A stretch of 64,000 nucleotides of DNA from Escherichia coli (GTDB lineage Bacteria; Pseudomonadota; Gammaproteobacteria; Enterobacterales; Enterobacteriaceae). A program made the translations under genes and the position numbers. This document shows, one piece after another, positions 1,972 to 64,000 of the stretch. Location of the stretch: the NCBI RefSeq assembly GCF_013122565.1, contig NZ_CP053258.1. One strand, written 5' to 3'. Numbering within the stretch: the stretch's first letter is position 1; every line of letters starts with the position of its first letter. Under the pieces are notes generated by a model. That model searched no databases. It was not told the origin of the DNA and worked only from the letters and a program-made list of their open reading frames with translations.

Positions 1972-2114
1972 ACGGTAAAGCCCTCACCGAAGCGAGGGCT
2001 TGAAGGAGAAGGGTTATGATGCGACTTGTCATCATACTGATTGTACTGTTACTGATAAGTTTCGGAGCTTATTAACAGTCAGTCTCAGGGGAGGAGTCAT
2101 CCTCCCTTACCCTT
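1972..2114 (-). ncRNA. sibC: Sib antisense sRNA (antitoxin), copy 1; ends approximate
   Basis: minus-strand sigma70-like promoter (TTGACA-17 nt-TAATTT; plus-strand 2145..2150 and 2122..2127) firing across the ibs ORF; hairpins at 1960..2001; boundaries inferred, not measured. Confidence 0.5.
2016..2075 (+). CDS. ibsC: Ibs-family type I toxin, 19 aa hydrophobic peptide (MMRLVIILIVLLLISFGAY)
   Basis: short ORF with RBS gaaggagaagg 6 nt upstream; sequence one residue different from the K-12 IbsC I recall. Confidence 0.75.
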   Translation: MMRLVIILIVLLLISFGAY

Positions 2115-2364
2115 ACTCACTAAATTAGGTCAAAGAATCAACGATGTCAATCAGGGCGATGCGGGGTGCATCGCCCTGAACCGATCTTTTTGATAGCCAC
2201 ATCATCGCCCGCGTTTACTGCTGCAATAAATCCCTTTTCCCTGCAATGTATGTCTGCCTTACATGACGTTTTACGAGTGCACTCGAAGAAAAGATTTAAA
2301 GGCAGATCAATGCGTTGTGTTTATTTAATGGGGATTTACGATGGCAGGGCAGCATGGGGCTGTA

Positions 2365-3189: not shown

Positions 3190-3375
3190 AGGGAATCTCC
3201 GAGATGCCGCCGCAGGCTGTAACCCTTGAACCCTTGGTTCAAGGTGAATGTGTCGTCGCAGTTTTAAGGCTTCTCGGACGGACCGAGCATGCTCACCAAC
3301 CGCGGAGCGCCACATTCTTGTGGTATGAAATATCGGCTCAGGGGACTGGCCCGCTTGCGAACATCTCAGAGAAAT
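3190..3375 (-). ncRNA. ssrS: 6S RNA
   Basis: plus strand carries the reverse complement of the 6S RNA sequence (5' AUUUCUCUGAGAUGUUCGCAAGCGGGCCAGUCCCCUGAGCC ... GGAGAUUCCCU 3'); immediately upstream of ygfA as in the known ssrS-ygfA operon. Confidence 0.9.
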
Positions 3376-42594: not shown

Positions 42595-43173
42595 CTAAAT
42601 TTCAGTATACCTTTTCTTCGCTGTAATAAAGTCGTCCGGAGTATCAATATCTAAAATTATTTCTGCATTTTCTATTTCGACGGAATAATGATCTCCCATA
42701 AGGAATGCCTGACGCATATTGGTGACATTGGGTCGCTGGAATGCCTGCATCAAGCATGGTTTTGACACTAAAATCGGATGGCCGGGGATGCCATTATGAA
42801 GTGGCAGTATTGCGCCATCATTTCGTAACGACCAGATTTTTCTAAAAATATCAATGGTGAGGGTTGGCATGTCACCGTGGGTGAGAAAACAATGTTCTGT
42901 TTGCACTGCGGGTACTGCGGCCTTGACTGATGTTAGTAAACCCTGGGCATAATCTGGGTTGTGAATAATAGTGATATTACTCTGGTTCGCATAACGTTCG
43001 TGCAGTTCATTACCACGATAGCCGGTGACTAAAATAATTCGGCTACAAAACTGCAACGCATTTTTGATACTTGTATCAAGAATTGTTCCCTGTTGCCAGG
43101 GTAACATCATTTTCCATTGCCCCATTCTTGATGATAATCCGGCAGCGGTAATTATACAGTCGATGGCTGACAT
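42595..43173 (-). CDS. mocA: molybdenum cofactor cytidylyltransferase (MobA-like)
   Basis: 192 aa MSAIDCIITAAGLSSRMGQWKMMLPW, nucleotidyltransferase motif. Confidence 0.85.
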   Translation of the reverse strand: MSAIDCIITAAGLSSRMGQWKMMLPWQQGTILDTSIKNALQFCSRIILVTGYRGNELHERYANQSNITIIHNPDYAQGLLTSVKAAVPAVQTEHCFLTHGDMPTLTIDIFRKIWSLRNDGAILPLHNGIPGHPILVSKPCLMQAFQRPNVTNMRQAFLMGDHYSVEIENAEIILDIDTPDDFITAKKRYTEI

Positions 43174-50878: not shown

Positions 50879-52069
50879 TTATTTCACGCGTTCTTGCGCT
50901 TCTTTCAGCAGTTGCTCGAGCAGTGCACCTGGTTTGGCGTATTTACGGGACAGGATCATCGCGGCGATGATATAAGGCTTCCAGCTGGCTTCTTTGTAGG
51001 TAGCGATACGGTATTTTTCGAATACGCCTTCAGTCACTTCACCTTCTTTGCAGGATACGCCGCTGATATCAGCTGGCAGGCAGTGCATGTACAGGGCTTC
51101 GCCATCACGGGTCAGTTCCATCATCTCTTCAGTACAATGCCAGTCTTTGTGTTGCGCGTTCTGTGCCAGACACTGTTTTTCCAGTGCTTTTAAGCCTTCG
51201 TGGTCGTTTGCACGCAGCAATTCAGTACGCTCTTCCATCACTTTGTAAGGTGCCCATGACTTCGGATAAACGATGTCTGCGTCTTTGAAGGCTTCTTCCA
51301 TGCTGGTGACCTGACGGAAGCTACCACCGGAGGCTTTAGCATTGTTTTTCGCCACTTCAACCACATCCGGGATCAGGTCGTAGCCTTCCGGATGGGCCAG
51401 GGTGACATCCATACCGAAGCGAGTCATCAGACCGATGATGCCTTGTGGTACAGAGAGCGGTTTGCCATAGCTTGGGGAGTAGGCCCAGGTCATGGCGATT
51501 TTTTTACCTTTCAGGTTTTCCAGTGAACCAAAGTGTTCACGTAACCATGCCAGGTCAGCCATTGACTGAGTCGGGTGGTCAATATCACATTGCAGGTTCA
51601 CTAAAGCCGGACGTTGCGGCAGAACACCCTGCTTGTAACCGTCATCAAGTGCAGCGCCAACTTCACGCATATAGGCGTTGCCTGCGCCCAGATACATATC
51701 GTCGCGAATACCAATAGCGTCGGCGCAGAAGGAGATCATATTGGCGGTTTCACGCACGGTTTCGCCGTGAGCGATTTGTGATTTGCCTTCGTCGAGATCT
51801 TGCTGTGCAAGGCCGAGCAGGTTAAGCGCGGAAGCATAAGAGAAGCGGGTACGAGTGGAGTTGTCGCGGAATACGGAAATACCTAATCCACTGTTAAAGA
51901 CTTTGGTTGAGATGTTTTCAGCACGCAGTGCTTTTAATGCTGCGGCAACGTCCAGTACTTGTTTCAGTTCATCTGGCGTCTGTTCCCACGTTAACAAAAA
52001 ATCTTTCTCGTGAAGGTGAGAGGTCAGCGAATTGATATCCTTAATCAGCTCATTAACAGTTTTCATCAT
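50879..52069 (-). CDS. ygeW: carbamoyltransferase-family protein (OTC/ATC fold, substrate unresolved)
   Basis: 396 aa with STRTR carbamoyl-phosphate-binding motif and HCLP motif. Confidence 0.9.
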   Translation of the reverse strand: MMKTVNELIKDINSLTSHLHEKDFLLTWEQTPDELKQVLDVAAALKALRAENISTKVFNSGLGISVFRDNSTRTRFSYASALNLLGLAQQDLDEGKSQIAHGETVRETANMISFCADAIGIRDDMYLGAGNAYMREVGAALDDGYKQGVLPQRPALVNLQCDIDHPTQSMADLAWLREHFGSLENLKGKKIAMTWAYSPSYGKPLSVPQGIIGLMTRFGMDVTLAHPEGYDLIPDVVEVAKNNAKASGGSFRQVTSMEEAFKDADIVYPKSWAPYKVMEERTELLRANDHEGLKALEKQCLAQNAQHKDWHCTEEMMELTRDGEALYMHCLPADISGVSCKEGEVTEGVFEKYRIATYKEASWKPYIIAAMILSRKYAKPGALLEQLLKEAQERVK

Positions 52070-52544
52070 AAAGTCCCGGTAGTGGAATGACAGGCAAAGT
52101 GGTTTATTTCACTGTGACTTGCCAAAGTGATTGGTGTTTTCACAGCTATACTTGGGACTAACAATAAGTGTGCCAGAATTATCCACGGGGCTGCAAAAGA
52201 CTAATTTGACGGATAATGTGTGGGGTTGATCACAAATTGATGCCAGCTTCCGGTTGTTTGTAAAATACGAAAACGTTTGGCTTTTTTTATCGCGTTATTT
52301 ATTTGCTGCTAAGTATCAGAAATAAGATAAAGGGGCAGGCTATCCCTCGTCAGTTTGATAAACTCACCGCCGTAATTCTCATATTGATATAGAAATGTGA
52401 TATCTCTTCCATAATTTCATTAGAAAGTGATAAAAATCTTATGTTTTTATCAAAGCCAATTTCGCCTGAGTTAATATCATCATGATCTGTGAACCATCAA
52501 CGTCTTCAATGATCGACTTTTAAGTAAGTCTGGAAGGTAAAGCT

Positions 52545-54323
52545 ATGGAGCTTGCTACTACGCAGTCAGTATTGATGCAAATTCAACCGACAATTCAGCG
52601 TTTTGCCAGAATGCTTGCCAGCGTTTTGCAGCTTGAGGTTGAGATCGTTGATGAAAACTTGTGTCGCGTCGCCGGAACTGGCGCGTATGGGAAGTTTCTT
52701 GGTCGCCAGTTGAGCGGCAACTCACGCCTGCTCCGCCACGTCCTGGAAACGAAAACTGAAAAAGTTGTGACACAGTCTCGCTTCGATCCCCTTTGTGAAG
52801 GTTGCGATAGTAAAGAAAATTGCCGCGAAAAAGCATTTCTGGGTACGCCTGTCATTTTACAGGATCGTTGTGTTGGGGTGATAAGTTTGATTGCCGTTAC
52901 CCACGAGCAACAAGAGCATATTAGTGATAATTTACGCGAATTTTCTGATTACGTTCGCCATATATCCACCATTTTTGTTTCGAAACTTCTGGAGGATCAG
53001 GGACCAGGAGATAACATCAGTAAAATATTCGCGACCATGATCGATAATATGGATCAGGGCGTATTAGTTATTGATGACGATAATCGGATTCAGTTTGTTA
53101 ATCAGACAGCCTTAAAAACACTCGGTGTTGTGCAAAATAATATTATTGGGAAACCTATCCGTTTCAGACCATTAACATTTGAGAGTAATTTTACCCATGG
53201 ACATATGCAGCATATTGTTTCGTGGGACGATAAAAGTGAGTTAATCATTGGTCAATTGCATAACATTCAGGGCCGACAATTATTTTTAATGGCGTTTCAC
53301 CAATCGCATACCAGTTTTTCTGTAGCAAATGCACCTGATGAACCGCATATTGAACAATTGGTTGGCGAGTGCCGTGTTATGCGGCAATTAAAACGACTCA
53401 TTAGCCGTATTGCACCCAGCCCATCCAGCGTTATGGTGGTTGGTGAAAGCGGCACGGGTAAAGAAGTCGTCGCCCGTGCAATCCATAAGTTGAGCGGAAG
53501 ACGGAATAAACCCTTTATTGCTATCAACTGTGCCGCGATTCCGGAGCAGCTTCTGGAGAGCGAACTGTTCGGTTATGTTAAAGGCGCATTTACTGGCGCT
53601 TCTGCCAACGGTAAAACAGGGTTGATTCAGGCGGCGAATACGGGCACGCTGTTTCTCGATGAAATAGGTGATATGCCATTAATGTTGCAGGCTAAATTAC
53701 TGCGCGCTATTGAGGCACGTGAAATTCTGCCGATTGGTGCCAGTAGCCCAATACAAGTCGACATTCGCATCATTTCTGCAACTAACCAGAATTTGGCCCA
53801 GTTCATTGCAGAAGGTAAATTCCGCGAAGATCTCTTCTACCGACTTAATGTTATCCCGATAACTCTGCCACCGCTGCGTGAACGTCAGGAAGATATTGAA
53901 CTACTGGTGCATTATTTTTTACATCTGCATACCCGTCGTCTGGGATCGGTTTATCCGGGCATTGCTCCCGATGTCGTCGAAATATTGCGTAAGCATCGTT
54001 GGCCCGGAAACCTGCGCGAGTTAAGCAATTTGATGGAATATCTGGTTAACGTGGTTCCTTCAGGTGAAGTTATCGACAGCACGCTATTGCCGCCAAATCT
54101 GCTGAATAATGGCACAACGGAGCAAAGTGATGTAACAGAGGTCAACGAGGCGCACCTGGCACTCGATGATGCGGGCGGCACGGCGCTGGAGGAGATGGAA
54201 AAGCAAATGATCCGCGAGGCGCTTTCACGTCATAACAGCAAGAAGCAAGTTGCTGATGAACTGGGCATCGGCATTGCTACGCTCTATCGCAAGATTAAGA
54301 AATATGAGTTGTTAAACACATAA
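52545..54323 (+). CDS. ygeV: sigma54-dependent transcriptional activator (bacterial enhancer-binding protein)
   Basis: 592 aa; AAA+ core with Walker A GESGTGKE and the sigma54-contact GAFTGA motif; C-terminal HTH; N-terminal sensory region. Confidence 0.9.
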   Translation: MELATTQSVLMQIQPTIQRFARMLASVLQLEVEIVDENLCRVAGTGAYGKFLGRQLSGNSRLLRHVLETKTEKVVTQSRFDPLCEGCDSKENCREKAFLGTPVILQDRCVGVISLIAVTHEQQEHISDNLREFSDYVRHISTIFVSKLLEDQGPGDNISKIFATMIDNMDQGVLVIDDDNRIQFVNQTALKTLGVVQNNIIGKPIRFRPLTFESNFTHGHMQHIVSWDDKSELIIGQLHNIQGRQLFLMAFHQSHTSFSVANAPDEPHIEQLVGECRVMRQLKRLISRIAPSPSSVMVVGESGTGKEVVARAIHKLSGRRNKPFIAINCAAIPEQLLESELFGYVKGAFTGASANGKTGLIQAANTGTLFLDEIGDMPLMLQAKLLRAIEAREILPIGASSPIQVDIRIISATNQNLAQFIAEGKFREDLFYRLNVIPITLPPLRERQEDIELLVHYFLHLHTRRLGSVYPGIAPDVVEILRKHRWPGNLRELSNLMEYLVNVVPSGEVIDSTLLPPNLLNNGTTEQSDVTEVNEAHLALDDAGGTALEEMEKQMIREALSRHNSKKQVADELGIGIATLYRKIKKYELLNT

Positions 54324-55727: not shown

Positions 55728-57986
55728 TCAAATCAATCCTGCCAGATGGAACTCTTCATATAACCGTTTTGGCGTCAGCGGCAGTGTATTGATTGCAACA
55801 CCGGTAGCCATCTTCACCGCGTTACGAATAGCTGCGGCAACAGGAATTATTGGTGGCTCACCCAGTGACTTATGTCCGTATGCGGATTGCGGCTCATTGA
55901 TTTCGACGAACGCGCTTTCCAGTTGTGGCAGATCCGGCATGGTCGGCATTTTGTAATCCAGCAGATTGGGGTTACGGACCACGCCGCTTTTCGCATCGAT
56001 GATCATCTCTTCAAATAGTGCCCAGCCAATGCCCATTCCCATTCCGCCGTGTACCTGACCTTCTGCTAGCAGCGGATTAAGAATATGCCCCGAATCATGA
56101 ACGTTGAGGATGCGGTTGATGGTGACTTTACACAGCGCAATATCGACCGTCAGGTCAACAAAGGTACAGCCAAACGCCGGTGGGTTAGTGGTGGTTTTGA
56201 TGGAGCTTTCAGCAGAGAGCTGCCCGCCGCGTTCAGAGTGGTAGAAAGCGTCCATCGCCAAAACTTTTAACGACATTAACGGCTCTTCCGGTCGTTCAAT
56301 TAGCACGATATGGCCTTTTATCAGGGTCAGATTCATCGCTGACTGATGTAGCATGACTGCGGCGTGAGCGATGATTTTCTCTTTTAATAACAGTGCTGCA
56401 CTGCGCAGCGCAGGCGCGGCAACATAGCTCTGGCGTGAGGCAAATGCGCCAGGATCGAACGGCGTAACGTCGGTATCTTGTGTTGAAATAACGCGAATGT
56501 CGCTGACCGGAACCCCCACGGTTTCTGCCACCATTTGCGAGAAGACGGTGTCGGCACCCTGGCCGATTTCCGTCGCGCCGCTTTGCACGTTGATGGTTCC
56601 ATCCTGATTCATCAACAGGCGCGCGCCTGCTATTTCTACGCCGACAGGCCAGGTGTTAGAGGTGTAGCTAAAACAGGCGACGCCAACGCCGCGGCGTAAA
56701 TTGCCTTGCTGGTTCTGGCACTCTGCACGGCGTTTTTCCCATTCAAAGATTTTCCGGCCTTTTTCAAGACACTCCGGCAACCCTGCGCTGTAAATACGTT
56801 TGCCTGTGAGCGGATTAGCATCTCCTTCGCGGGCGGCGTTGCGTAAACGAATTTCAACAGGATCAATACCTAACGCTGTCGCGGCGTCATCAAGCATAGA
56901 CTCAACGGCAAATACGACTTGTGGCGCGCCATAACCACGCATCGCACCAGCCGAGGGGAGGTTGGTATAGCAGGTCTTTGAACTGTAAGCGTAGGCACAA
57001 CGAGGATAAAGGTAAGCGACTTTATTCCCCCCCGCAGAAGCGATGGAGTGCCCGTGAGATGCGTAAGCGCCGGTGTTAGACAGAACATCCAGACTATAAC
57101 CTTTCAATGTTCCGTCGCGGTTCACGCCCATTTGCCCGTCAATAGTAAAAGCGTGGCGGGTACGGGTTGCGAGGAAACACTCTTCACGGCTAAGGGACAC
57201 TTTCACCGGAATGCCGCCAAGCTTGCTGGTCAGGAATGCCGCCATTGGCTCTTCCAGTACATCCTGTTTATTACCAAAACCGCCACCGACAAACGGTTTG
57301 ATGACTCGTACGCATGACCAGGGAATATTCAGCGCCTGACCAACCACACGGCGAACAATGTGCGGGATCTGGGTGCTGGAAACGATGGTAATTCGCGAGT
57401 CATCCTCCATCCATGCCAGCGATGTCACGCTTTCCATGTGACAATGTTGAATGACCGGCGTCTGATAGTGCCCCTGTACCTGGTAGTCGGCGGCATCGAT
57501 TGTTTGTTGGACATTGCCCGTCGACATCGTGCTTTGTTTTAGTAAATTGCCGCCGTTATGGATTGGTGCAGCGTCATCAGCCAGCGCCGCTTCTGGGGTG
57601 GTGATAACGGGTAATTCTTGCCACTCAATGCTGACCAATTGCGCCGCTTTTTCTGCCGTGAGTTCATCACGGGCCACGACGATGGCAACGGCGTCACCAT
57701 GGTGACGAACATGGCGAGTTAGCAGTGCGCGATCGGCGGTATCGCGCTTGTTTTCGTCAAGTGTCCAGGCATGCCCAGCTGTAGCGAATGGGATATCAGG
57801 CACATCTTCCCAGGTAAAAATCGCCAGTACGCCCGGTAAACTTCTGGCTTGTTCATCATTAATACTTACGGCATAACCATGTGCGATAGGGCTACGTACA
57901 TATTTCGCGTAACACATGCCCGCCATAACATAATCGTCAGTATATCGTGCCCGCCCGGTGACCTTAGCAATGGCATCTACGCGCAT
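55728..57986 (-). CDS. xdhA: xanthine dehydrogenase molybdenum-binding subunit
   Basis: 752 aa from MRVDAIAKVTGRARYTDDY; ORF-track 13-codon extension trimmed. Confidence 0.9.
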   Translation of the reverse strand: MRVDAIAKVTGRARYTDDYVMAGMCYAKYVRSPIAHGYAVSINDEQARSLPGVLAIFTWEDVPDIPFATAGHAWTLDENKRDTADRALLTRHVRHHGDAVAIVVARDELTAEKAAQLVSIEWQELPVITTPEAALADDAAPIHNGGNLLKQSTMSTGNVQQTIDAADYQVQGHYQTPVIQHCHMESVTSLAWMEDDSRITIVSSTQIPHIVRRVVGQALNIPWSCVRVIKPFVGGGFGNKQDVLEEPMAAFLTSKLGGIPVKVSLSREECFLATRTRHAFTIDGQMGVNRDGTLKGYSLDVLSNTGAYASHGHSIASAGGNKVAYLYPRCAYAYSSKTCYTNLPSAGAMRGYGAPQVVFAVESMLDDAATALGIDPVEIRLRNAAREGDANPLTGKRIYSAGLPECLEKGRKIFEWEKRRAECQNQQGNLRRGVGVACFSYTSNTWPVGVEIAGARLLMNQDGTINVQSGATEIGQGADTVFSQMVAETVGVPVSDIRVISTQDTDVTPFDPGAFASRQSYVAAPALRSAALLLKEKIIAHAAVMLHQSAMNLTLIKGHIVLIERPEEPLMSLKVLAMDAFYHSERGGQLSAESSIKTTTNPPAFGCTFVDLTVDIALCKVTINRILNVHDSGHILNPLLAEGQVHGGMGMGIGWALFEEMIIDAKSGVVRNPNLLDYKMPTMPDLPQLESAFVEINEPQSAYGHKSLGEPPIIPVAAAIRNAVKMATGVAINTLPLTPKRLYEEFHLAGLI

Positions 57987-58080
57987 GCATGATTCACCTG
58001 TAGCGGTTGCTTCCCGCGCTTCCATAGAAATCCCCTCGATTTGAACATTTGGTTCTTATGGCAAAGATTTAGTCTAAGCA

Positions 58081-58097
58081 GGCAAGATTTACGCCAG
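58081..58097 (-). promoter_or_regulatory. candidate sigma54 -24/-12 promoter upstream of xdhABC
   Basis: minus-strand sequence cTGGCgtaaatcTTGCc with GG-N10-GC spacing, about 95 nt upstream of the xdhA ATG; sigma54 activator gene ygeV is adjacent. Confidence 0.35.
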
Positions 58098-58441
58098 AAA
58101 CGACGATAAGCGTTAAGGGAGGAAGGAAGTGTGATGATGTTAAAAAAAACACAGATATGATACGAAACAGGACCCTGAATAGGGGCAGTGATACGTATCA
58201 ATATGAGTGGCGATAAAATCAATGTGATAAATTGGGATTATTACGCATCAGGATGGGAAATAGGGTAAATGAGTCAGGAAATTCGATACCTCTACAGTGA
58301 ATATTTTGCTGATGATACTTCCCTTTGCCAAATGAAATTAATCTCTTTCTCTATTACTGCGTTTTTCCAGAAGCAAGAGATTGGGTATCAAGAGGCTGGC
58401 TGCTATGATATGGCGTCTTGTTTTTTAAGCGAGGAAAGATT

Positions 58442-59194
58442 TTGAGTGCGGGACGCCTGAATAAAAAATCTCTGGGTATCGTGATGTTGTTATCGGTTGG
58501 ACTGCTTTTGGCGGGCTGTTCGGGTAGCAAATCATCCGATACAGGAACGTATTCCGGCTCCGTTTACACCGTGAAACGGGGGGATACTCTATATCGTATT
58601 TCGCGCACCACGGGAACCAGCGTAAAAGAGCTGGCGCGACTGAACGGCATTTCCCCCCCTTACACCATTGAAGTTGGTCAGAAACTAAAACTGGGTGGGG
58701 CGAAAAGTAGCAGTACACGTAAATCAACCGCCAAATCAACGACCAAAACCGCATCTGTTACACCGTCATCAGCGGTACCGAAATCTTCCTGGCCGCCAGT
58801 AGGGCAACGTTGTTGGTTATGGCCAACGACAGGGAAAGTTATCATGCCGTATTCGACAGCTGATGGCGGCAATAAAGGGATTGATATCTCAGCACCACGG
58901 GGTACACCTATTTACGCCGCGGGTGCAGGAAAGGTGGTGTATGTAGGCAATCAGCTGCGTGGCTACGGTAATCTCATCATGATTAAACACAGTGAAGATT
59001 ATATTACGGCTTACGCACATAATGACACGATGCTGGTTAATAATGGGCAAAGCGTGAAGGCTGGGCAAAAAATCGCCACTATGGGGAGCACTGATGCGGC
59101 ATCTGTTCGCCTGCATTTCCAGATTCGTTACCGTGCAACGGCAATTGATCCGCTACGTTACTTGCCGCCTCAGGGCAGCAAGCCAAAATGCTGA
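58442..59194 (+). CDS. ygeR: LysM-domain / M23-peptidase-family lipoprotein
   Basis: lipobox LLLAGC, LysM (YTVKRGDTLYRISR) and M23 LytM-like C-terminus; start uncertain (TTG at 58442 with RBS gagga, TTG at 58418, or ATG at 58484). Confidence 0.8.
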   Translation: MSAGRLNKKSLGIVMLLSVGLLLAGCSGSKSSDTGTYSGSVYTVKRGDTLYRISRTTGTSVKELARLNGISPPYTIEVGQKLKLGGAKSSSTRKSTAKSTTKTASVTPSSAVPKSSWPPVGQRCWLWPTTGKVIMPYSTADGGNKGIDISAPRGTPIYAAGAGKVVYVGNQLRGYGNLIMIKHSEDYITAYAHNDTMLVNNGQSVKAGQKIATMGSTDAASVRLHFQIRYRATAIDPLRYLPPQGSKPKC

Positions 59195-59272
59195 TGGCGA
59201 ATTAATCAGCAGTCAGCAGCGCGGCACTTGCTAAGGAGAGCGTAAGGTTTATAATGCCTTACGCATCTCGAA

Positions 59273-59346
59273 GCGGGCGTAGTTCAATGGTAGAACGAGA
59301 GCTTCCCAAGCTCTATACGAGGGTTCGATTCCCTTCGCCCGCTCCA
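59273..59346 (+). tRNA. glyU: tRNA-Gly (anticodon CCC)
   Basis: 74 nt cloverleaf GCGGGCGUAGUUCAAUGGUAGAACGAGAGCUUCCCAAGCUCUAUACGAGGGUUCGAUUCCCUUCGCCCGCUCCA; encoded CCA. Confidence 0.95.
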
Positions 59347-59579
59347 ATTTATCTTCACCTCATCAACCTGCCATTTTTGTTGTATCTGATTTTCTATATT
59401 ATCTTAATTCAATCGGTTCAGACTTTTCGCAATCGCCGTAATACTTCCCCATTTTTTTGTAAATAAAAAGCGATTACGCAATGCAATCCTTTTGTAACAA
59501 TCCAGGTAAAATACCTTATTTTCAAGTTGTTAAATAAGTGGTTATCTACGCTTTTAACAAACGATTGATGGAATATTTT

Positions 59580-61190
59580 ATGAAAGGGAAATCTGCATTA
59601 ACTCTTCTGCTCGCTGGTATATTTTCATGCGGCACCTGCCAGGCGACAGGGGCAGAAGTGACGAGTGAATCTGTATTTAACATTCTTAATTCCACGGGGG
59701 CAGCAACAGATAAAAGTTATTTATCGTTAAATCCAGATAAGTATCCTAATTATCGTCTTCTGATTCACTCAGCCAAATTAAAAAATGAAATAAAGAGCCA
59801 CTATTCCAAAGACGAAATTCAAGGATTGTTAACATTAACAGAAAATACACGAAAGTTAACGTTGACGGAGAAACCCTGGGGAACATTTATTCTTGCTTCT
59901 ACTTTCGAAGATGACAAAACAGCGGCAGAAACCCACTATGATGCTGTCTGGCTGAGGGATAGTTTATGGGGCTATATGGCCTTAGTATCAGATCAGGGAA
60001 ATAGTGTAGCCGCAAAAAAGGTTCTGCTCACCCTGTGGGATTATATGTCTACGCCCGACCAGATTAAGCGGATGCAGGACGTCATTAGCAACCCAAAACG
60101 ACTGGATGGAATTCCTGGGCAAATGAATGCTGTGCATATCCGATTTGACAGCAACTCCCCCGTGATGGCGGATGTGCAGGAAGAAGGCAAGCCGCAGCTG
60201 TGGAACCATAAACAAAATGATGCGTTAGGTCTTTATCTTGATCTCCTTATACAAGCAATCGACACTGGTACTATTAACGCTGAAGATTGGCAAAAAGGTG
60301 ACCGATTAAAATCGGTTGCGCTGCTGATTGCTTATCTGGATAAAGCCAATTTCTATGTTATGGAAGATTCCGGAGCGTGGGAAGAAGATGCCAGATTAAA
60401 CACATCTTCCGTTGCACTGGTGACCTCTGGACTGGAACGTTTGTCGAACTTACTCTCGAAGAAAGACTCTGTTTTTGTCTCTGATTTACTACGTGAAGCT
60501 AAAGCCAATGAACTGGATGAACCTCTTTCAACAACGAGGTTGAACCACCTCATAGATAAAGGTTATGAAAGAATAACGTTACAGCTTGATTTAGGGGGAG
60601 AATCCCCAGGTTATCTGGAAAAAGATAAACATTACAGAGAAGCCGATGCGGCTTTACTTAATGTTATTTATCCTGCAAATCTTTCAAAGATAAACACCAG
60701 AAGAAAAGAGCAAGTTCTAAAAATAGTTAAAAAACTAGCAGGTCCGTATGGTATAAAAAGATACGAGAAGGATAATTATCAGTCGGCAAATTTTTGGTTC
60801 AATGATATTAAAACCGATACCGATCAAAATTCGCATGCAAAAAGAGAAAAGAGCTTCATTCCATCAACAGAAGCAGAATGGTTTTTTGACTCATGGTATG
60901 CAAAATCAGCAGCAATTGTTTATAAAGAATCAAGAAAAGAAGAGTATTTGAATGACTCAGTGCAATTTATGAATAGATCATTGGCCCAAATAACAGGCGA
61001 GAATATGATTGGTGCAAATGGCAGGAGTGTACCTGAAATGGCACTTCCCGAAAGCTATAACTATATCCACAAGTCGGGAACTTTGCATGAAGCGCCAAGC
61101 CCTATCATTCCGCTAAATTGGTCGAAAGCATCAATGACTCTCATGTTGAAAGAGATGTCCAACCTTATCAATGATGAGGGAAATAAATAG
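59580..61190 (+). CDS. secreted glycoside hydrolase family 15-like protein (glucoamylase / glucodextranase fold)
   Basis: signal peptide MKGKSALTLLLAGIFSCGTCQA; GH15-type motifs WLRDS and EDSGAWEED; start uncertain (GTG 59538, ATG 59568 or ATG 59580). Confidence 0.7.
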   Translation: MKGKSALTLLLAGIFSCGTCQATGAEVTSESVFNILNSTGAATDKSYLSLNPDKYPNYRLLIHSAKLKNEIKSHYSKDEIQGLLTLTENTRKLTLTEKPWGTFILASTFEDDKTAAETHYDAVWLRDSLWGYMALVSDQGNSVAAKKVLLTLWDYMSTPDQIKRMQDVISNPKRLDGIPGQMNAVHIRFDSNSPVMADVQEEGKPQLWNHKQNDALGLYLDLLIQAIDTGTINAEDWQKGDRLKSVALLIAYLDKANFYVMEDSGAWEEDARLNTSSVALVTSGLERLSNLLSKKDSVFVSDLLREAKANELDEPLSTTRLNHLIDKGYERITLQLDLGGESPGYLEKDKHYREADAALLNVIYPANLSKINTRRKEQVLKIVKKLAGPYGIKRYEKDNYQSANFWFNDIKTDTDQNSHAKREKSFIPSTEAEWFFDSWYAKSAAIVYKESRKEEYLNDSVQFMNRSLAQITGENMIGANGRSVPEMALPESYNYIHKSGTLHEAPSPIIPLNWSKASMTLMLKEMSNLINDEGNK

Positions 61191-61256
61191 TTTTCATAAT
61201 GAGGCGGTCCTGGATTAAAAGGACCGCTCAAAGAGAAATCGAAAGGGGAGGTAAAA

Positions 61257-61436
61257 GTGATCAATAAATTACTGTTAGCTTACCTGATAGGTCTGGTTGT
61301 GACATCGACTTTAATATTTATCTTCTCGGAAGAAAAAGTAACATATCGGTTGTTTGCTGCAATAATTACAGGTTTAACCTGGCCGCTTAGTCTCATTCCT
61401 TCCATTATAAGTCTCATGATTCGTAAATCCGACTAA
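61257..61436 (+). CDS. hypothetical small membrane protein (59 aa, two predicted TM helices)
   Basis: GTG start with strong RBS aaggggagg 5 nt upstream; two hydrophobic stretches (LLLAYLIGLVVTSTLIFIF, LFAAIITGLTWPLSLIPSIISLMI); absent from the ORF track because of the non-ATG start. Confidence 0.4.
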   Translation: MINKLLLAYLIGLVVTSTLIFIFSEEKVTYRLFAAIITGLTWPLSLIPSIISLMIRKSD

Positions 61437-61781
61437 CAAGAAAATTATATGATCGATTAAGAAAAATAGAATCGAACAGGAGAATAAAATATATGCGGGG
61501 AGTAACAAAACACTCGCAGTGCGTTAATGAAGAACTAACAAATATGATTTGTATTGAAAATAGTTACCAAACAAGTGTTATAAGAAATACGAGGTGTGTT
61601 TAAGTAAAGCATATCAACAGTTACAAATCTGTATATGGACAGGATGACGTACAAGTGTAAGTGGCTGATAGCTATTCGCTCATAACAAAATCATTATTTT
61701 ATAAATAGGAATCATCACTTTTTAATCATGTTTTTATAGCAATTTTATGGAGAATGAGAATATGGAATAAGGAGATGAAAC

Positions 61782-62531
61782 ATGATTGAAGAAGGGCTGT
61801 TACTTCCAATGAATGTTTTGCTTCAAGGACAGAAGTTAACCCTACTGGACCCTGAAATGTGGTTCTTACGGGGAAATGAAAACAAGGATGTAACCCTTGT
61901 TATTACGATCGGTAATAACCATCAAAAATTAATGGTAGTGGAAGATATATTACTGCTCATTGACCGAAGCCAAATTGAGGTAACGGCAGGGAAAGTAATT
62001 TATCATCCACTTCGCATTGATATCCTGAGTAAATTATTAGCTTTTATAGATGAATCAACGGGGAGTGTGGAAAGGGAGCACCATGAGTTGTTTGCTGATG
62101 CCTTGCCCTTTGCATCAGAAGTTGTGCTATTCAGTAAAGTTGCTAGTGAAGCCTGGTTTTTAGCCACTTATCTGAGCAGCGATAATATTAATGAAGTTCT
62201 GTTTCAGCATCTAAGAAAAACAGAATGCTATAAACTGGTTCGCTATTTATTATCGCAATCGCTTATACAGACTTCACTCTATGATCTTGGAGAGCTTTAC
62301 GGCGTATCGTATTCACATTTTCGCCGTTTATGTAGTTATGCATTGGGTGGTAAAGTTAAAACGGAATTATGTGGCTGGAGAGTTGCCAGAGCCGTGTTGG
62401 AAATCATTGAAGGAAACAGTGATATGACAACTATTGCGCATAAATATGGCTACTCTTCCTCATCACACTTTTCAGCCGAAGTAAAAAGCCGGTTAGGAAA
62501 AACACCGAGAGAACTATGTAAAAAGCTATGA
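61782..62531 (+). CDS. eivF: AraC-family transcriptional activator, InvF-like (ETT2 type III secretion regulator)
   Basis: 249 aa; C-terminal AraC HTH (GVSYSHFRRLCSYALGGKVKTEL...YGYSSSSHFS) closely parallels Salmonella InvF; RBS aaggag. Confidence 0.8.
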   Translation: MIEEGLLLPMNVLLQGQKLTLLDPEMWFLRGNENKDVTLVITIGNNHQKLMVVEDILLLIDRSQIEVTAGKVIYHPLRIDILSKLLAFIDESTGSVEREHHELFADALPFASEVVLFSKVASEAWFLATYLSSDNINEVLFQHLRKTECYKLVRYLLSQSLIQTSLYDLGELYGVSYSHFRRLCSYALGGKVKTELCGWRVARAVLEIIEGNSDMTTIAHKYGYSSSSHFSAEVKSRLGKTPRELCKKL

Positions 62532-64000
62532 AAATAAAAATACGCATTACTATTATATTAATTTCAGTCTTATGCATTTTTAATGGATTATCGACTCCTG
62601 GTGCATATGCCGCAGCAGCGAATGGATACGTAGCAAATAAAGAAAATCTACGTAGTTTTTTTGAAACGGTTTCATCATATGCGGGTAAGCCTACAATAGT
62701 TAGTAAGCTTGCCATGAAGAAACAGATCAGCGGAAATTTTGATTTAACAGAACCCTATGCCTTGATTGAACGCCTGTCGGCACAGATGGGGCTTATTTGG
62801 TATGATGATGGCAAAGCTATTTATATCTATGACTCATCAGAGATGCGTAATGCATTGATTAATCTGAGAAAGGTATCGACGAATGAGTTTAATAATTTCT
62901 TAAAAAAATCGGGTCTGTATAACTCTCGTTATGAAATTAAAGGGGGCGGCAATGGTACTTTCTATGTATCGGGGCCACCGGTTTATGTTGACCTGGTCGT
63001 TAATGCTGCGAAATTAATGGAGCAAAACAGCGATGGCATTGAGATCGGTCGAAATAAAGTAGGAATAATTCATCTGGTCAACACATTCGTTAATGACCGG
63101 ACTTATGAGTTACGTGGCGAAAAGATAGTTATTCCTGGCATGGCAAAAGTACTATCGACGTTGTTAAATAATAACATTAAGCAAAGCACAGGGGTGAACG
63201 TACTTTCTGAAATTTCAAGTCGTCAACAACTAAAAAACGTATCACGTATGCCTCCTTTTCCTGGGGCTGAAGAAGATGATGACCTACAAGTAGAGAAAAT
63301 AATATCGACAGCAGGAGCGCCAGAGACTGACGATATACAAATTATTGCATATCCTGATACCAACAGTTTACTTGTTAAAGGAACAGTATCTCAGGTTGAT
63401 TTTATCGAGAAGTTAGTAGCTACGCTTGATATTCCAAAGCGACACATTGAATTATCTTTATGGATAATAGATATTGATAAGACTGATCTAGAACAGCTAG
63501 GTGCTGACTGGTCGGGCACGATAAAAATTGGATCCAGCTTAAGTGCATCATTTAATAATTCAGGTTCAATTAGTACCCTTGATGGGACACAGTTTATTGC
63601 AACAATACAGGCACTTGCACAAAAAAGAAGAGCCGCCGTTGTTGCTCGTCCCGTCGTTTTAACACAGGAGAATATTCCTGCTATATTTGATAATAACCGC
63701 ACTTTCTATACTAAATTAGTCGGCGAGCGTACTGCGGAATTGGATGAAGTAACCTATGGTACGATGATTAGCGTGCTACCACGATTTGCTGCGCGAAATC
63801 AAATTGAATTACTCTTGAATATTGAAGATGGAAATGAAATCAATTCCGACAAGACCAATGTTGATGATCTGCCTCAGGTTGGTAGAACACTTATAAGTAC
63901 TATTGCACGCGTGCCCCAAGGGAAAAGTCTTTTGATTGGGGGATATACACGCGATACGAATACCTATGAAAGTCGCAAGATCCCAATATTAGGCAGCATT
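62528..64000 (+). CDS. eivG: type III secretion system secretin, InvG/YscC family; 3' end beyond the window
   Basis: open frame from the ATG at 62528 to the window end, hand-translated; signal peptide, then near-colinear similarity to InvG (FYVSGPPVYVD, IIAYPDTNSLLVKGT, RPVVLTQENIPAIFDNNRTFYTKL, GRTLISTIARVPQGKSLLIGGYTRD). Confidence 0.85.
   Translation, partial: MKIKIRITIILISVLCIFNGLSTPGAYAAAANGYVANKENLRSFFETVSSYAGKPTIVSKLAMKKQISGNFDLTEPYALIERLSAQMGLIWYDDGKAIYIYDSSEMRNALINLRKVSTNEFNNFLKKSGLYNSRYEIKGGGNGTFYVSGPPVYVDLVVNAAKLMEQNSDGIEIGRNKVGIIHLVNTFVNDRTYELRGEKIVIPGMAKVLSTLLNNNIKQSTGVNVLSEISSRQQLKNVSRMPPFPGAEEDDDLQVEKIISTAGAPETDDIQIIAYPDTNSLLVKGTVSQVDFIEKLVATLDIPKRHIELSLWIIDIDKTDLEQLGADWSGTIKIGSSLSASFNNSGSISTLDGTQFIATIQALAQKRRAAVVARPVVLTQENIPAIFDNNRTFYTKLVGERTAELDEVTYGTMISVLPRFAARNQIELLLNIEDGNEINSDKTNVDDLPQVGRTLISTIARVPQGKSLLIGGYTRDTNTYESRKIPILGSI

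What the first reader, a model, noticed from the sequence alone, without database searches (positions are those of the whole stretch)
59195..64000. Boundary of an ETT2-type type III secretion island next to tRNA-Gly (glyU)
Core synteny ends at ygeR-glyU. Directly downstream are a GH15-like gene, a small membrane ORF, an InvF-like AraC regulator and an InvG-like secretin whose frame is still open at the window edge. tRNA genes are classical island insertion points, and the eivF-eivG pair is the start of the ETT2 (SPI-1-like) module, which is deleted or decayed in K-12 and many other strains. In this window at least the regulator and the N-terminal three-quarters of the secretin show no frameshift or stop. 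Whether the whole T3SS is intact cannot be judged from this window.
Basis: partly seen in the sequence, partly recalled or inferred. Interest (0 to 1): 0.6.

Follow-up and report, generated by a model that had tools for sequence, protein, structure and literature searches.

The report
glyU-side end of E. coli ETT2 island
This is the well-known, tRNA-Gly-adjacent end of the second type III secretion island of Escherichia coli (ETT2), with its first four genes uninterrupted as far as the window goes. It is ordinary, and the window cannot show whether the rest of the machine is intact.

Summary
After actS/ygeR and glyU (tRNA-Gly CCC, 59273-59346) come four genes:
- a GH15-like gene (59580-61190);
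- a 59-aa GhoT/OrtT-family membrane protein (61257-61436);
- eivF, an InvF-like AraC regulator (61782-62531);
- eivG, an InvG-like SctC secretin, which starts at 62528 and is open to 64000.

All four are gap-free and stop-free against relatives. The stretch is 97-99% identical to ETT2 in about 980 of 5,426 complete E. coli genomes. GC falls from 0.51 to 0.39.

Three corrections:
1. Sequence shared with ETT2-free genomes runs to 59488-59496, which is 142-150 bp past glyU. There is no integrase and no glyU-derived direct repeat, so ETT2 lacks the hallmarks of classical tRNA integration. Other elements do use the glyU 3' end in other strains.
2. The window holds 491 of 567 secretin codons (87%), not three quarters.
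3. The segment is a recombination mosaic with a breakpoint near 62.6 kb.

The common ETT2 deletions remove eivF and/or eivG, so a full-length cluster beyond 64000 is likely (932 versus 982 genomes). All reading frames from eivF to eprK were open in 6 of 10 relatives examined.

Already known; low interest.

The parts
58442..59194 (+). actS (ygeR), the LysM/M23 amidase activator. It is the last core protein gene before the island.
   Evidence: NCBIfam NF040883 ActS, 455 bits against a cutoff of 375. Annotated actS in TB06051 and UPEC129.
59228..59255 (+). Sigma-70-like promoter match (TTGCTA-16-TATAAT, 10 of 12) ending 17 bp upstream of glyU. It is the probable glyU promoter.
   Evidence: Consensus scan. 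The assignment to glyU is an inference from position only.
59273..59346 (+). glyU, tRNA-Gly (anticodon CCC), with the CCA end encoded.
   Evidence: ARAGORN; Rfam RF00005, 71.6 bits; sequence printed.
59347..59488 (.). 142 bp downstream of glyU that is still shared with ETT2-free genomes, so it is core and not island.
   Evidence: ETT2-free genomes such as UPEC129 match query positions 1-294, which is window 59195-59488.
59489..59496 (.). Left junction of ETT2 relative to the empty glyU-yqeG site. Similarity to the empty site fades out over these 8 bases. No direct repeat is present.
   Evidence: Empty-site sequence to the left matches the window. Sequence to the right matches a point 167 bp beyond the yqeG stop at the far end of ETT2 in TB06051 (L006 position 6300).
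59580..61190 (+). GH15-like gene (ygeQ / pkgA-ECs3737 equivalent), 536 aa and full length, with an N-terminal signal-like sequence.
   Evidence: Pfam PF00723 E 4.5e-5, residues 94-416. No NCBIfam model matches. The only PDB sequence hit is the phosphorylase kinase beta subunit at E 0.002. It aligns 1-536 without gaps to relatives. PGAP names it 'glycoside hydrolase family 15 protein'.
61257..61436 (+). 59-aa GhoT/OrtT-family small membrane protein (ECs3735, ydcX-like). It has a GTG start after a GGGGAGG ribosome-binding site.
   Evidence: Pfam PF10753 E 1.4e-11. 100% identical to WP_001301699.1-type proteins in L001 and L002. RBS shown. Listed as ECs3735 in PMC3977695.
61437..61781 (.). 345-bp AT-rich (GC 0.30) intergenic region upstream of eivF. 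It is the presumed regulatory region of the eiv operon.
   Evidence: Composition and sequence. [quoted passage not shown]
61782..62531 (+). eivF, an AraC-family (InvF/MxiE-like) T3SS transcriptional regulator, 249 aa and full length.
   Evidence: Best NCBIfam model is InvF NF011868, E 1.2e-54, 185 bits, below the equivalog cutoff of 259. Identical to the protein in Logan contig L002 and one residue different from TB06051 EivF.
62528..64000 (+). eivG (SctC/InvG-type secretin), first 491 of 567 codons. The start overlaps the eivF stop (ATGA). The frame is open to the window edge.
   Evidence: TIGR02516, 442 bits against a cutoff of 238. InvG PDB 5tcq, E 6e-169 over residues 16-489. Differs from the OZ197100 SctC only at residues 5 and 22. 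76 codons are missing beyond the window.
62600..62750 (.). Approximate recombination breakpoint. Upstream the window follows the allele of its closest core relatives. Downstream it follows the common E. coli eivG allele.
   Evidence: SNP density per 250 bp. 62650-64000 is 100% identical to NZ_OZ197100.1 but has 28 mismatches to L004.

Best explanation
The segment is the glyU-proximal end of ETT2, the SPI-1-like second type III secretion island of E. coli. It sits in the glyU-yqeG intergenic region.

**What it contains.** There are two accessory genes: a secreted GH15-like protein and an orphan GhoT/OrtT-type small membrane protein. They are followed by the first two genes of the inv-like operon.
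- eivF encodes an InvF/MxiE-type AraC regulator. By analogy, such regulators act together with a TPR chaperone; in ETT2 the predicted partner is YgeG.
- eivG encodes the outer-membrane secretin ring of the injectisome.

**How it is probably expressed.** eivF and eivG overlap by ATGA, so they are probably co-transcribed and translationally coupled from a promoter in the 345-bp AT-rich region upstream. That is the kind of region H-NS silences and HilA-like regulators (EilA, YgeH) activate.

**Shown here:** gene identities, intact frames, island composition, the junction position, and distribution across genomes.

**Inferred:** operon structure, regulation, and any secretion activity.

**Not knowable from the window:** whether this strain's ETT2 is complete beyond 64000. 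Relatives make a full-length cluster likely and an entirely open set of genes roughly an even bet.
For: - Nucleotide identity of 98.8% over the whole 4.8 kb to E. coli ETT2 loci with the same annotated gene order.
- 982 of 5,426 complete genomes cover at least 80% of the segment.
- The published ETT2 map and gene table match gene for gene (PMC3977695; PMC11068852).
- GC and GC3 drop, and AT-rich and rare codons are enriched, starting after 59488.
- Comparison with ETT2-free UPEC129 shows glyU followed directly by yqeG. It places the junctions at window 59488-59496 and at 167 bp beyond the yqeG stop.
- pN/pS of the island genes against six relatives is 0.05-0.15, meaning long-term purifying selection.
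- In the two closest relatives (99.3-99.5% identical) eivG is complete at 567 or 568 aa. In the Logan contig every downstream apparatus gene through etrA is full length.
- The recurrent ETT2 deletions seen in other genomes start at query position 2009 or 2700 and remove eivF and/or eivG. So a genome that keeps these genes usually keeps the 21-kb apparatus: 932 genomes against 982.
Against: - Nothing contradicts the identification.
- The last 76 codons of eivG and all other structural genes lie outside the window.
- 4 of 10 relatives examined have at least one interrupted apparatus gene: eivG, eprH, epaQ, eivE, epaS or eprJ.
- No secretion by ETT2 has been demonstrated, even in strains with intact loci (PMC7058095).
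- The GH15 assignment is weak. Pfam E is 4.5e-5 over a partial model, and there is no NCBIfam hit.
- EivF scores below the InvF equivalog cutoff.
Confidence: 0.96

Rival explanations
1. This is only a remnant. The strain keeps the glyU-proximal genes, but the rest of ETT2 beyond 64000 is deleted, IS-disrupted or pseudogenised, so no secretion apparatus can be made. EivF would then act at most as a stand-alone regulator.
For: - ETT2 has undergone widespread attrition (PMC7058095; PMC3977695).
- 3,991 genomes carry some ETT2 sequence, but only 932 carry at least 80% of the apparatus region.
- 4 of 10 relatives examined have at least one broken apparatus gene.
- A30, one of the closest complete genomes, has interrupted eivG and eprH.
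- EivF has regulatory effects on LEE even in degenerate clusters.
Against: - The frequent large deletions all remove eivF and/or eivG, and both are intact here.
- 932 of the roughly 982 genomes with this end also have the full-length apparatus region.
- The closest relative overall (L004) and the relatives closest in the eivG segment (TB06051, plus OZ197100 as far as its locus reaches) have eivG through epaS open, apart from about 97% coverage of eivC in OZ197100. In L004 and TB06051 the frames through etrA are also open.
Confidence: 0.45
2. This is a classical integrase-mediated genomic island that inserted into the 3' end of glyU, as the tRNA adjacency suggests.
For: - The island lies next to a tRNA gene and has low GC.
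- The glyU 3' end is a real attachment site in other strains. In JX21CE33 a prophage with a tyrosine integrase sits there, with a partial glyU repeat starting at query position 131.
Against: - Homology with the empty site continues 142-150 bp past the tRNA.
- No copy of the glyU 3' end (12-20-mers, or the 20-mer with up to 3 mismatches) exists in the window after glyU or anywhere in the TB06051 island and its far border.
- No integrase gene is present in the window segment or in the annotated ETT2 of relatives.
- The empty site could itself be a secondary deletion, so the original insertion mechanism stays open.
Confidence: 0.1
3. This is a different SPI-1-family T3SS (Salmonella SPI-1, Shigella Mxi-Spa or another inv/spa cluster) and not ETT2.
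For: EivG aligns to InvG and MxiD (E 6e-169 and 1.6e-138), and EivF's best model is InvF.
Against: - The DNA is 97-100% identical to E. coli ETT2 loci at the same chromosomal position.
- EivF is below the InvF equivalog cutoff.
- The flanking genes are E. coli core in K-12 order.
Confidence: 0.01

Closest known systems
ETT2 of E. coli O157:H7 Sakai (ECs3703-ECs3737) and EAEC 042 / ST69
   Same: - Same chromosomal site next to glyU.
- Same gene order: ECs3737/3736 (pkgA), ECs3735, eivF, eivG.
- eivF is 750 bp and ECs3735 is 180 bp, as in the published table.
- About 98.7% nucleotide identity to O157:H7 genomes.
- Low GC.

   Different: - The GH15-like gene is one 1,611-bp frame here, whereas the Sakai table lists two ORFs (1059 + 606 bp).
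- The window's allele is a mosaic not matched above 98.8% over its full length by any of 5,426 complete genomes.
- Only the first 4.5 kb of the roughly 29.9-kb island is in the window.
Salmonella SPI-1 invF-invG (start of the invFGEABCIJ-spaOPQRS operon)
   Same: - An AraC-type regulator gene is immediately followed by the secretin gene.
- EivG aligns to InvG over residues 16-489.
- Relatives continue with invE/A/C/I/J and spaO-S homologues in the same order.
   Different: - EivF scores 185 bits against the InvF model, below its cutoff of 259.
- Relatives show no gene between eivA and eivC where SPI-1 has invB. The position of invB is from my own knowledge of SPI-1; the gene list is.
- The flanking GH15 and GhoT/OrtT genes have no counterpart in SPI-1.
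- The chromosomal site is different.
GhoT / OrtT (YdcX) small membrane toxins of E. coli K-12
   Same: Pfam PF10753 match (E 1.4e-11). Size of 59 aa. Listed as a ydcX homologue in the ETT2 table.
   Different: - No other ORF of 70 aa or more lies between GH15 and eivF on either strand, so no GhoS-sized partner (about 98 aa, from memory) is adjacent. This makes it orphan, like OrtT.
- Toxicity was not tested, and no NCBIfam model matches.

Membership tests
ETT2 island of E. coli / E. albertii | Located between glyU and yqeG. | tested here: inconclusive
   The glyU side is met. The yqeG side lies about 25 kb beyond the window. It is met in relatives TB06051 and A30.
ETT2 island of E. coli / E. 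albertii | Gene series pkgA/ygeQ, ECs3735, eivF, eivG at the glyU end, with near-identity to reference ETT2 DNA. | tested here: met
   98.8% identity over 4,806 bp with the same annotated genes. The published gene table agrees.
ETT2 island of E. coli / E. albertii | GC content well below the chromosome (published figures: 36.9% against 50.8%). | tested here: met
   0.387 against 0.513; GC3 0.346 against 0.516.
ETT2 island of E. coli / E. albertii | Downstream eivE/A/C/I/J, epaO-S, eprH-K and regulators present. | not testable with these tools
   These lie outside the window, and the source genome could not be found. They are present and full length in the closest relative, L004.
SctC (InvG/MxiD-type) T3SS secretin | Scores above the curated cutoff of the SctC equivalog model. 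| tested here: met
   TIGR02516, 442.2 bits against a cutoff of 238.45, even though the protein is truncated by the window edge. InvG E 6e-169.
SctC (InvG/MxiD-type) T3SS secretin | Complete C-terminal secretin and S domain. | not testable with these tools
   The last 76 codons are beyond 64000. They are present in L001, L004 and L017.
InvF (AraC-family SPI-1 activator) equivalog | Scores above the curated cutoff of NF011868. | tested here: not met
   185.3 bits against a cutoff of 259. It is InvF-like but a distinct orthologue, which PGAP names EivF.
GhoT/OrtT toxin family | Pfam PF10753 match over most of the model. | tested here: met
   E 1.4e-11, model positions 3-46 of 55.
GhoT/OrtT toxin family | Membrane-damaging toxicity, with or without a cognate antitoxin. 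| not testable with these tools
   This needs an experiment. No GhoS-sized ORF is adjacent.
Glycoside hydrolase family 15 | Significant full-length match to the GH15 catalytic domain, with catalytic residues present. | tested here: inconclusive
   PF00723 E 4.5e-5, model positions 16-309 of 427 only. No NCBIfam hit. Only a marginal PDB hit to phosphorylase kinase beta. Catalytic residues were not examined.
Classical tRNA-integrated genomic island | Integrase gene next to the tRNA. | tested here: not met
   There is no integrase among the ORFs at 59347-64000 or in the annotated ETT2 of TB06051.
Classical tRNA-integrated genomic island | Direct repeat of the tRNA 3' end at the far border, with insertion at the tRNA 3' end. 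| tested here: not met
   No 12-20-mer of the glyU 3' end, and no 20-mer with up to 3 mismatches, occurs in the window or in L001 and L006. The junction is 142-150 bp downstream of glyU. The far border was tested in a relative, not in this strain.

The most novel reading that the evidence does not exclude
The window comes from an E. coli lineage that none of 5,426 complete RefSeq genomes matches above 98.9%. In that lineage the ETT2 end is a recombinant: the 5' part follows the lineage's own allele, and eivG follows the common allele. The cluster beyond 64000 would be entirely intact. It would then be one more natural strain with a potentially functional ETT2, with the island shown to be exchanged by homologous recombination between lineages.
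Probability: 0.4. Interest if true: 0.25.

Novelty: already known. Interest (0 to 1): 0.12.

Why it matters
ETT2 is a long-described, mostly cryptic island. Its regulators, EivF among them, influence LEE expression, adhesion and virulence, and its secretion activity has never been shown. Finding its glyU end intact in one more strain adds a data point but opens no new question.

Three results are modestly useful:
- The precise junction is 142-150 bp past glyU, with no tRNA repeat and no integrase.
- Recombination is visible within eivG.
- Keeping eivF-eivG is a good proxy for a full-length cluster.

Tried and rejected
- **Finding the source genome to read past 64000.**
  - An exact 120-mer from the window end found nothing in the GTDB species-representative genomes.
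  - An exact-protein look-up of the GH15-like protein found nothing.
  - Exact look-ups of EivF and XdhA found only relatives, at 99.45% and 99.31% identity, not the source.
- **A Shigella or cryptic-clade origin.** I considered this because no complete E. coli genome exceeds 98.9% identity. I could not test it. The window shows no IS elements and has normal K-12 gene order from serA to actS, which argues weakly against Shigella.
- **PGAP pseudogene flags.** I took PGAP's 'frameshifted' and 'partial' flags on eivJ and epaO in TB06051, A30 and OZ197100 as evidence of decay. Direct translation then showed both frames open and gap-free against the intact relative, so I rejected that reading.
- **glyU 3'-end direct repeats.** None found.
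- **Promoter and terminator scans of 59150-62700.** Promoter-like sites did not exceed the shuffled expectation (10 found against 10.9 expected), so the scan is uninformative apart from the site upstream of glyU.
- **Ren et al. 2004 (PMC415751).** Not held in the library.
- **A second genome-contig scan for outgroup empty sites.** Not run. Its cost outweighed its value for a known island.
Full report
**1. What is in the sequence**

The last core genes of the window are xdhA (55728-58025, minus strand) and actS/ygeR (58442-59194, plus strand). ActS scores 455 bits against a cutoff of 375 on the NCBIfam model.

One tRNA is found in the whole 64-kb window. It is tRNA-Gly with anticodon CCC at 59273-59346 (ARAGORN; Rfam). 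This is glyU. A 10-of-12 sigma-70 consensus match ends 17 bp upstream of it.

Four genes follow on the plus strand:
- A 536-aa GH15-like protein at 59580-61190. Its family assignment is weak: Pfam PF00723 E 4.5e-5 over a partial model, no NCBIfam model, and only a marginal PDB sequence hit to the phosphorylase kinase beta subunit.
- A 59-aa GhoT/OrtT-family membrane protein at 61257-61436 (PF10753 E 1.4e-11). It has a GTG start behind a GGGGAGG ribosome-binding site.
- After a 345-bp intergenic region with GC 0.30, a 249-aa AraC-type regulator at 61782-62531. Its best model is InvF (E 1.2e-54), but at 185 bits it is below that model's cutoff of 259.
- A secretin frame that begins at 62528, overlapping the regulator's stop codon as ATGA, and stays open to base 64000.

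That secretin fragment is 491 codons long. It exceeds the SctC equivalog cutoff (442 against 238 bits). It aligns to Salmonella InvG (PDB 5tcq) over residues 16-489 at E 6e-169.

The fragment is 87% of the 567-aa protein seen in relatives, not three quarters.

**2. Is it the ETT2 island?**

Yes. The 4,806-bp segment matches 5,413 of 5,426 complete E. coli genomes somewhere. It matches 982 of them over at least 80% of its length, at 97-98.8% identity. PGAP annotates the series tRNA-Gly, GH15 family protein, GhoT/OrtT family toxin, EivF, SctC.

The published ETT2 description fits gene for gene. The island is 29.9 kb, adjacent to glyU, has 36.9% GC, and runs ECs3703-ECs3737. Its glyU end holds ECs3733 eivG (1704 bp), ECs3734 eivF (750 bp), ECs3735 (180 bp, ydcX homologue), and ECs3736 pkgA with ECs3737 (PMC3977695; PMC11068852).

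Composition changes as expected for the island. GC is 0.513 before 59489 and 0.387 after. GC3 of coding sequence is 0.516 against 0.346. AGA, ATA and TTA codons are 3-6 times more frequent in the island genes.

**3. Where exactly the boundary lies**

Ranking all genome matches by coverage showed discrete attrition classes:
- full coverage;
- 1-2700, a deletion from inside eivF to eivA;
- 1-2009, a deletion from just after the GH15 gene to eivJ;
- 1-1522, the K-12 state;
- 1-920;
- 1-493;
- 1-294.

The 1-294 class consists of genomes without ETT2. In UPEC129, glyU is followed directly by yqeG.

I aligned that empty site with the window and with the far end of ETT2 in strain TB06051. The left junction falls at window 59488-59496. 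The right junction falls 167 bp beyond the yqeG stop. Only a single ambiguous base is shared between the two junctions.

So 142-150 bp downstream of glyU is still core. The finding's start coordinate (59195) is about 294 bp too early.

No 12-20-mer of the glyU 3' end, and no 20-mer with up to three mismatches, recurs in the window or in the TB06051 island and its far border. No integrase is annotated anywhere in ETT2. ETT2 therefore lacks the hallmarks of integrase-mediated tRNA insertion.

One caveat applies. The literature argues that ETT2 predates the E. coli/E. albertii split (PMC4700944). If so, the empty site may be a secondary clean deletion and not the ancestral state.

The glyU 3' end is nevertheless a real attachment site for other elements:
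- In JX21CE33 a prophage with a tyrosine integrase sits between glyU and a partial glyU repeat.
- In A30 and OZ197100 a CP4-like element carrying CbtA/YeeU, RadC and antirestriction genes lies upstream of the GH15 gene.

Neither element is present in the window.

**4. Intactness, and what probably lies beyond 64000**

All four island genes align end to end, without gaps or stops, to three relatives.

I could not find the source genome. An exact 120-mer found nothing in the species-representative genomes, and the GH15 protein is not on record. The nearest sequences are a Logan contig from SRR11451197 (99.45% identical) and GCA_052983875.1 (99.31%). No complete RefSeq E. coli genome exceeds 98.9%, even over 19 kb of core.

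In both near relatives eivG is complete. In the Logan contig every downstream gene is full length: eivE, eivA, eivC, eivI, eivJ (291 aa), epaO (315 aa), epaP-S, eprH-K, orgA/B and etrA.

At the population level, 3,991 genomes carry some part of the 21-kb apparatus region and 932 carry at least 80% of it. That is close to the 982 that keep the glyU-proximal end. The reason is that the common deletions remove eivF and/or eivG.

I examined ten relatives by stop-to-stop frames for the genes from eivF to eprK. Six have every frame open and four have one to three interrupted genes.

PGAP flags eivJ and epaO as 'frameshifted' or 'partial' in three of these genomes. I could not reproduce this. Both frames are open, and the DNA aligns without gaps to the intact relative.

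My estimate is about 0.9 that the cluster is full length in this strain, and about 0.5 that all its genes are open.

**5. Mosaic structure**

SNP density shows that from 57000 to about 62600 the window follows its core relatives L002 and L003, at 0-4 differences per 250 bp in most bins.

From about 62650 to 64000 the pattern reverses:
- it differs from those relatives at about 28 sites;
- it is 100% identical to NZ_OZ197100.1;
- it is one base from TB06051 and near-identical to O157:H7 alleles.

This points to a homologous-recombination breakpoint in the 5' end of eivG.

The window's EivG differs from the OZ197100 protein only at residues 5 and 22, both in the signal peptide. Across relatives, pN/pS for the island genes is 0.05-0.15. 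That is consistent with long-term purifying selection and not with free decay.

**6. How it most likely works**

*Shown here:* gene identities, order, the eivF/eivG overlap, strong ribosome-binding sites, and an AT-rich upstream region.

*Inferred from SPI-1 and the ETT2 literature:*
- eivF-eivG open an inv-like operon, which continues with eivE/A/C/I/J and epaO-S in relatives.
- EivF is an InvF/MxiE-type activator. Its predicted co-activator is the TPR chaperone YgeG (PMC9241512).
- EivG forms the outer-membrane ring.
- Expression depends on HilA-like regulators (EilA, YgeH) and is repressed by H-NS (PMC11068852).
- EivF also lowers secretion of LEE-encoded proteins in EHEC.

No secretion through ETT2 has been shown, even for intact loci (PMC7058095).

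The GH15-like and GhoT/OrtT-like genes have no SPI-1 counterpart, and their roles are unknown. The small protein is probably an orphan membrane toxin of the OrtT kind, because no antitoxin-sized ORF is adjacent.

**7. Verdict**

This is a textbook-known island end, so novelty is 'already known' and interest is low.

Noticed in passing
window 57000-64000 (breakpoint about 62600-62750): The segment is a recombination mosaic. Up to about 62.6 kb it follows the allele of its nearest core relatives. From 62650 to 64000 it is 100% identical to a different, widespread eivG allele (NZ_OZ197100.1) and 28 SNPs away from those relatives.
   Followed up: yes
window 40000-64000: No complete RefSeq E. coli genome (5,426 searched) is more than 98.9% identical, even over 19 kb of core. 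The nearest sequences are a Logan SRA contig (99.45%) and GCA_052983875.1 (99.31%). The source lineage is therefore not represented among complete E. coli genomes. Shigella and rare lineages were not excluded.
   Followed up: partly
window 59324-59364 (glyU 3' end); L007 7695-9001; L008 1-8500; L017 1-8900: In other strains the glyU 3' end or its flank is occupied by other mobile elements. One is a prophage with a tyrosine integrase (JX21CE33). Another is a CP4-like element with CbtA/YeeU, RadC and antirestriction genes (A30, OZ197100). A 138-kb record counted among the plasmid matches (NZ_OY757951.1) carries an exact 36-bp match to window 59329-59364, which is possibly an attP. The site is unoccupied in the window.
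   Followed up: partly
L001 29990-31812; L008 18125-19947; L017 18535-20357: PGAP marks eivJ and epaO as partial or frameshifted in these genomes. Direct translation shows both frames open (291 and 315 aa) and gap-free against the intact relative. The flags look like reference-model artefacts and would overstate ETT2 decay in annotation-based surveys.
   Followed up: yes
window 2000-2150, 2393-2543, 3192-3375 (minus strand): Two tandem Sib antitoxin RNAs (with ibsC toxin genes opposite, as annotated in TB06051) lie next to 6S RNA (ssrS) between serA and the ssrS-fau (ygfA) genes. The duplication is also present in TB06051, so it is a normal strain variant.
   Followed up: partly
window 59538-59580: The GH15-like frame is open from a GTG at 59538 (550 aa), but PGAP and Prodigal use the ATG at 59580 (536 aa). 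Neither start has a convincing ribosome-binding site. The Sakai table lists this gene as two ORFs (pkgA 1059 bp plus ECs3737 606 bp), whereas here it is one frame.
   Followed up: no
window 52000-53500: A local GC dip to 0.37-0.42 falls around the ygeW-ygeV intergenic region and the start of ygeV, inside otherwise core sequence. mocA (42595-43173) also has low GC, at 0.42.
   Followed up: no
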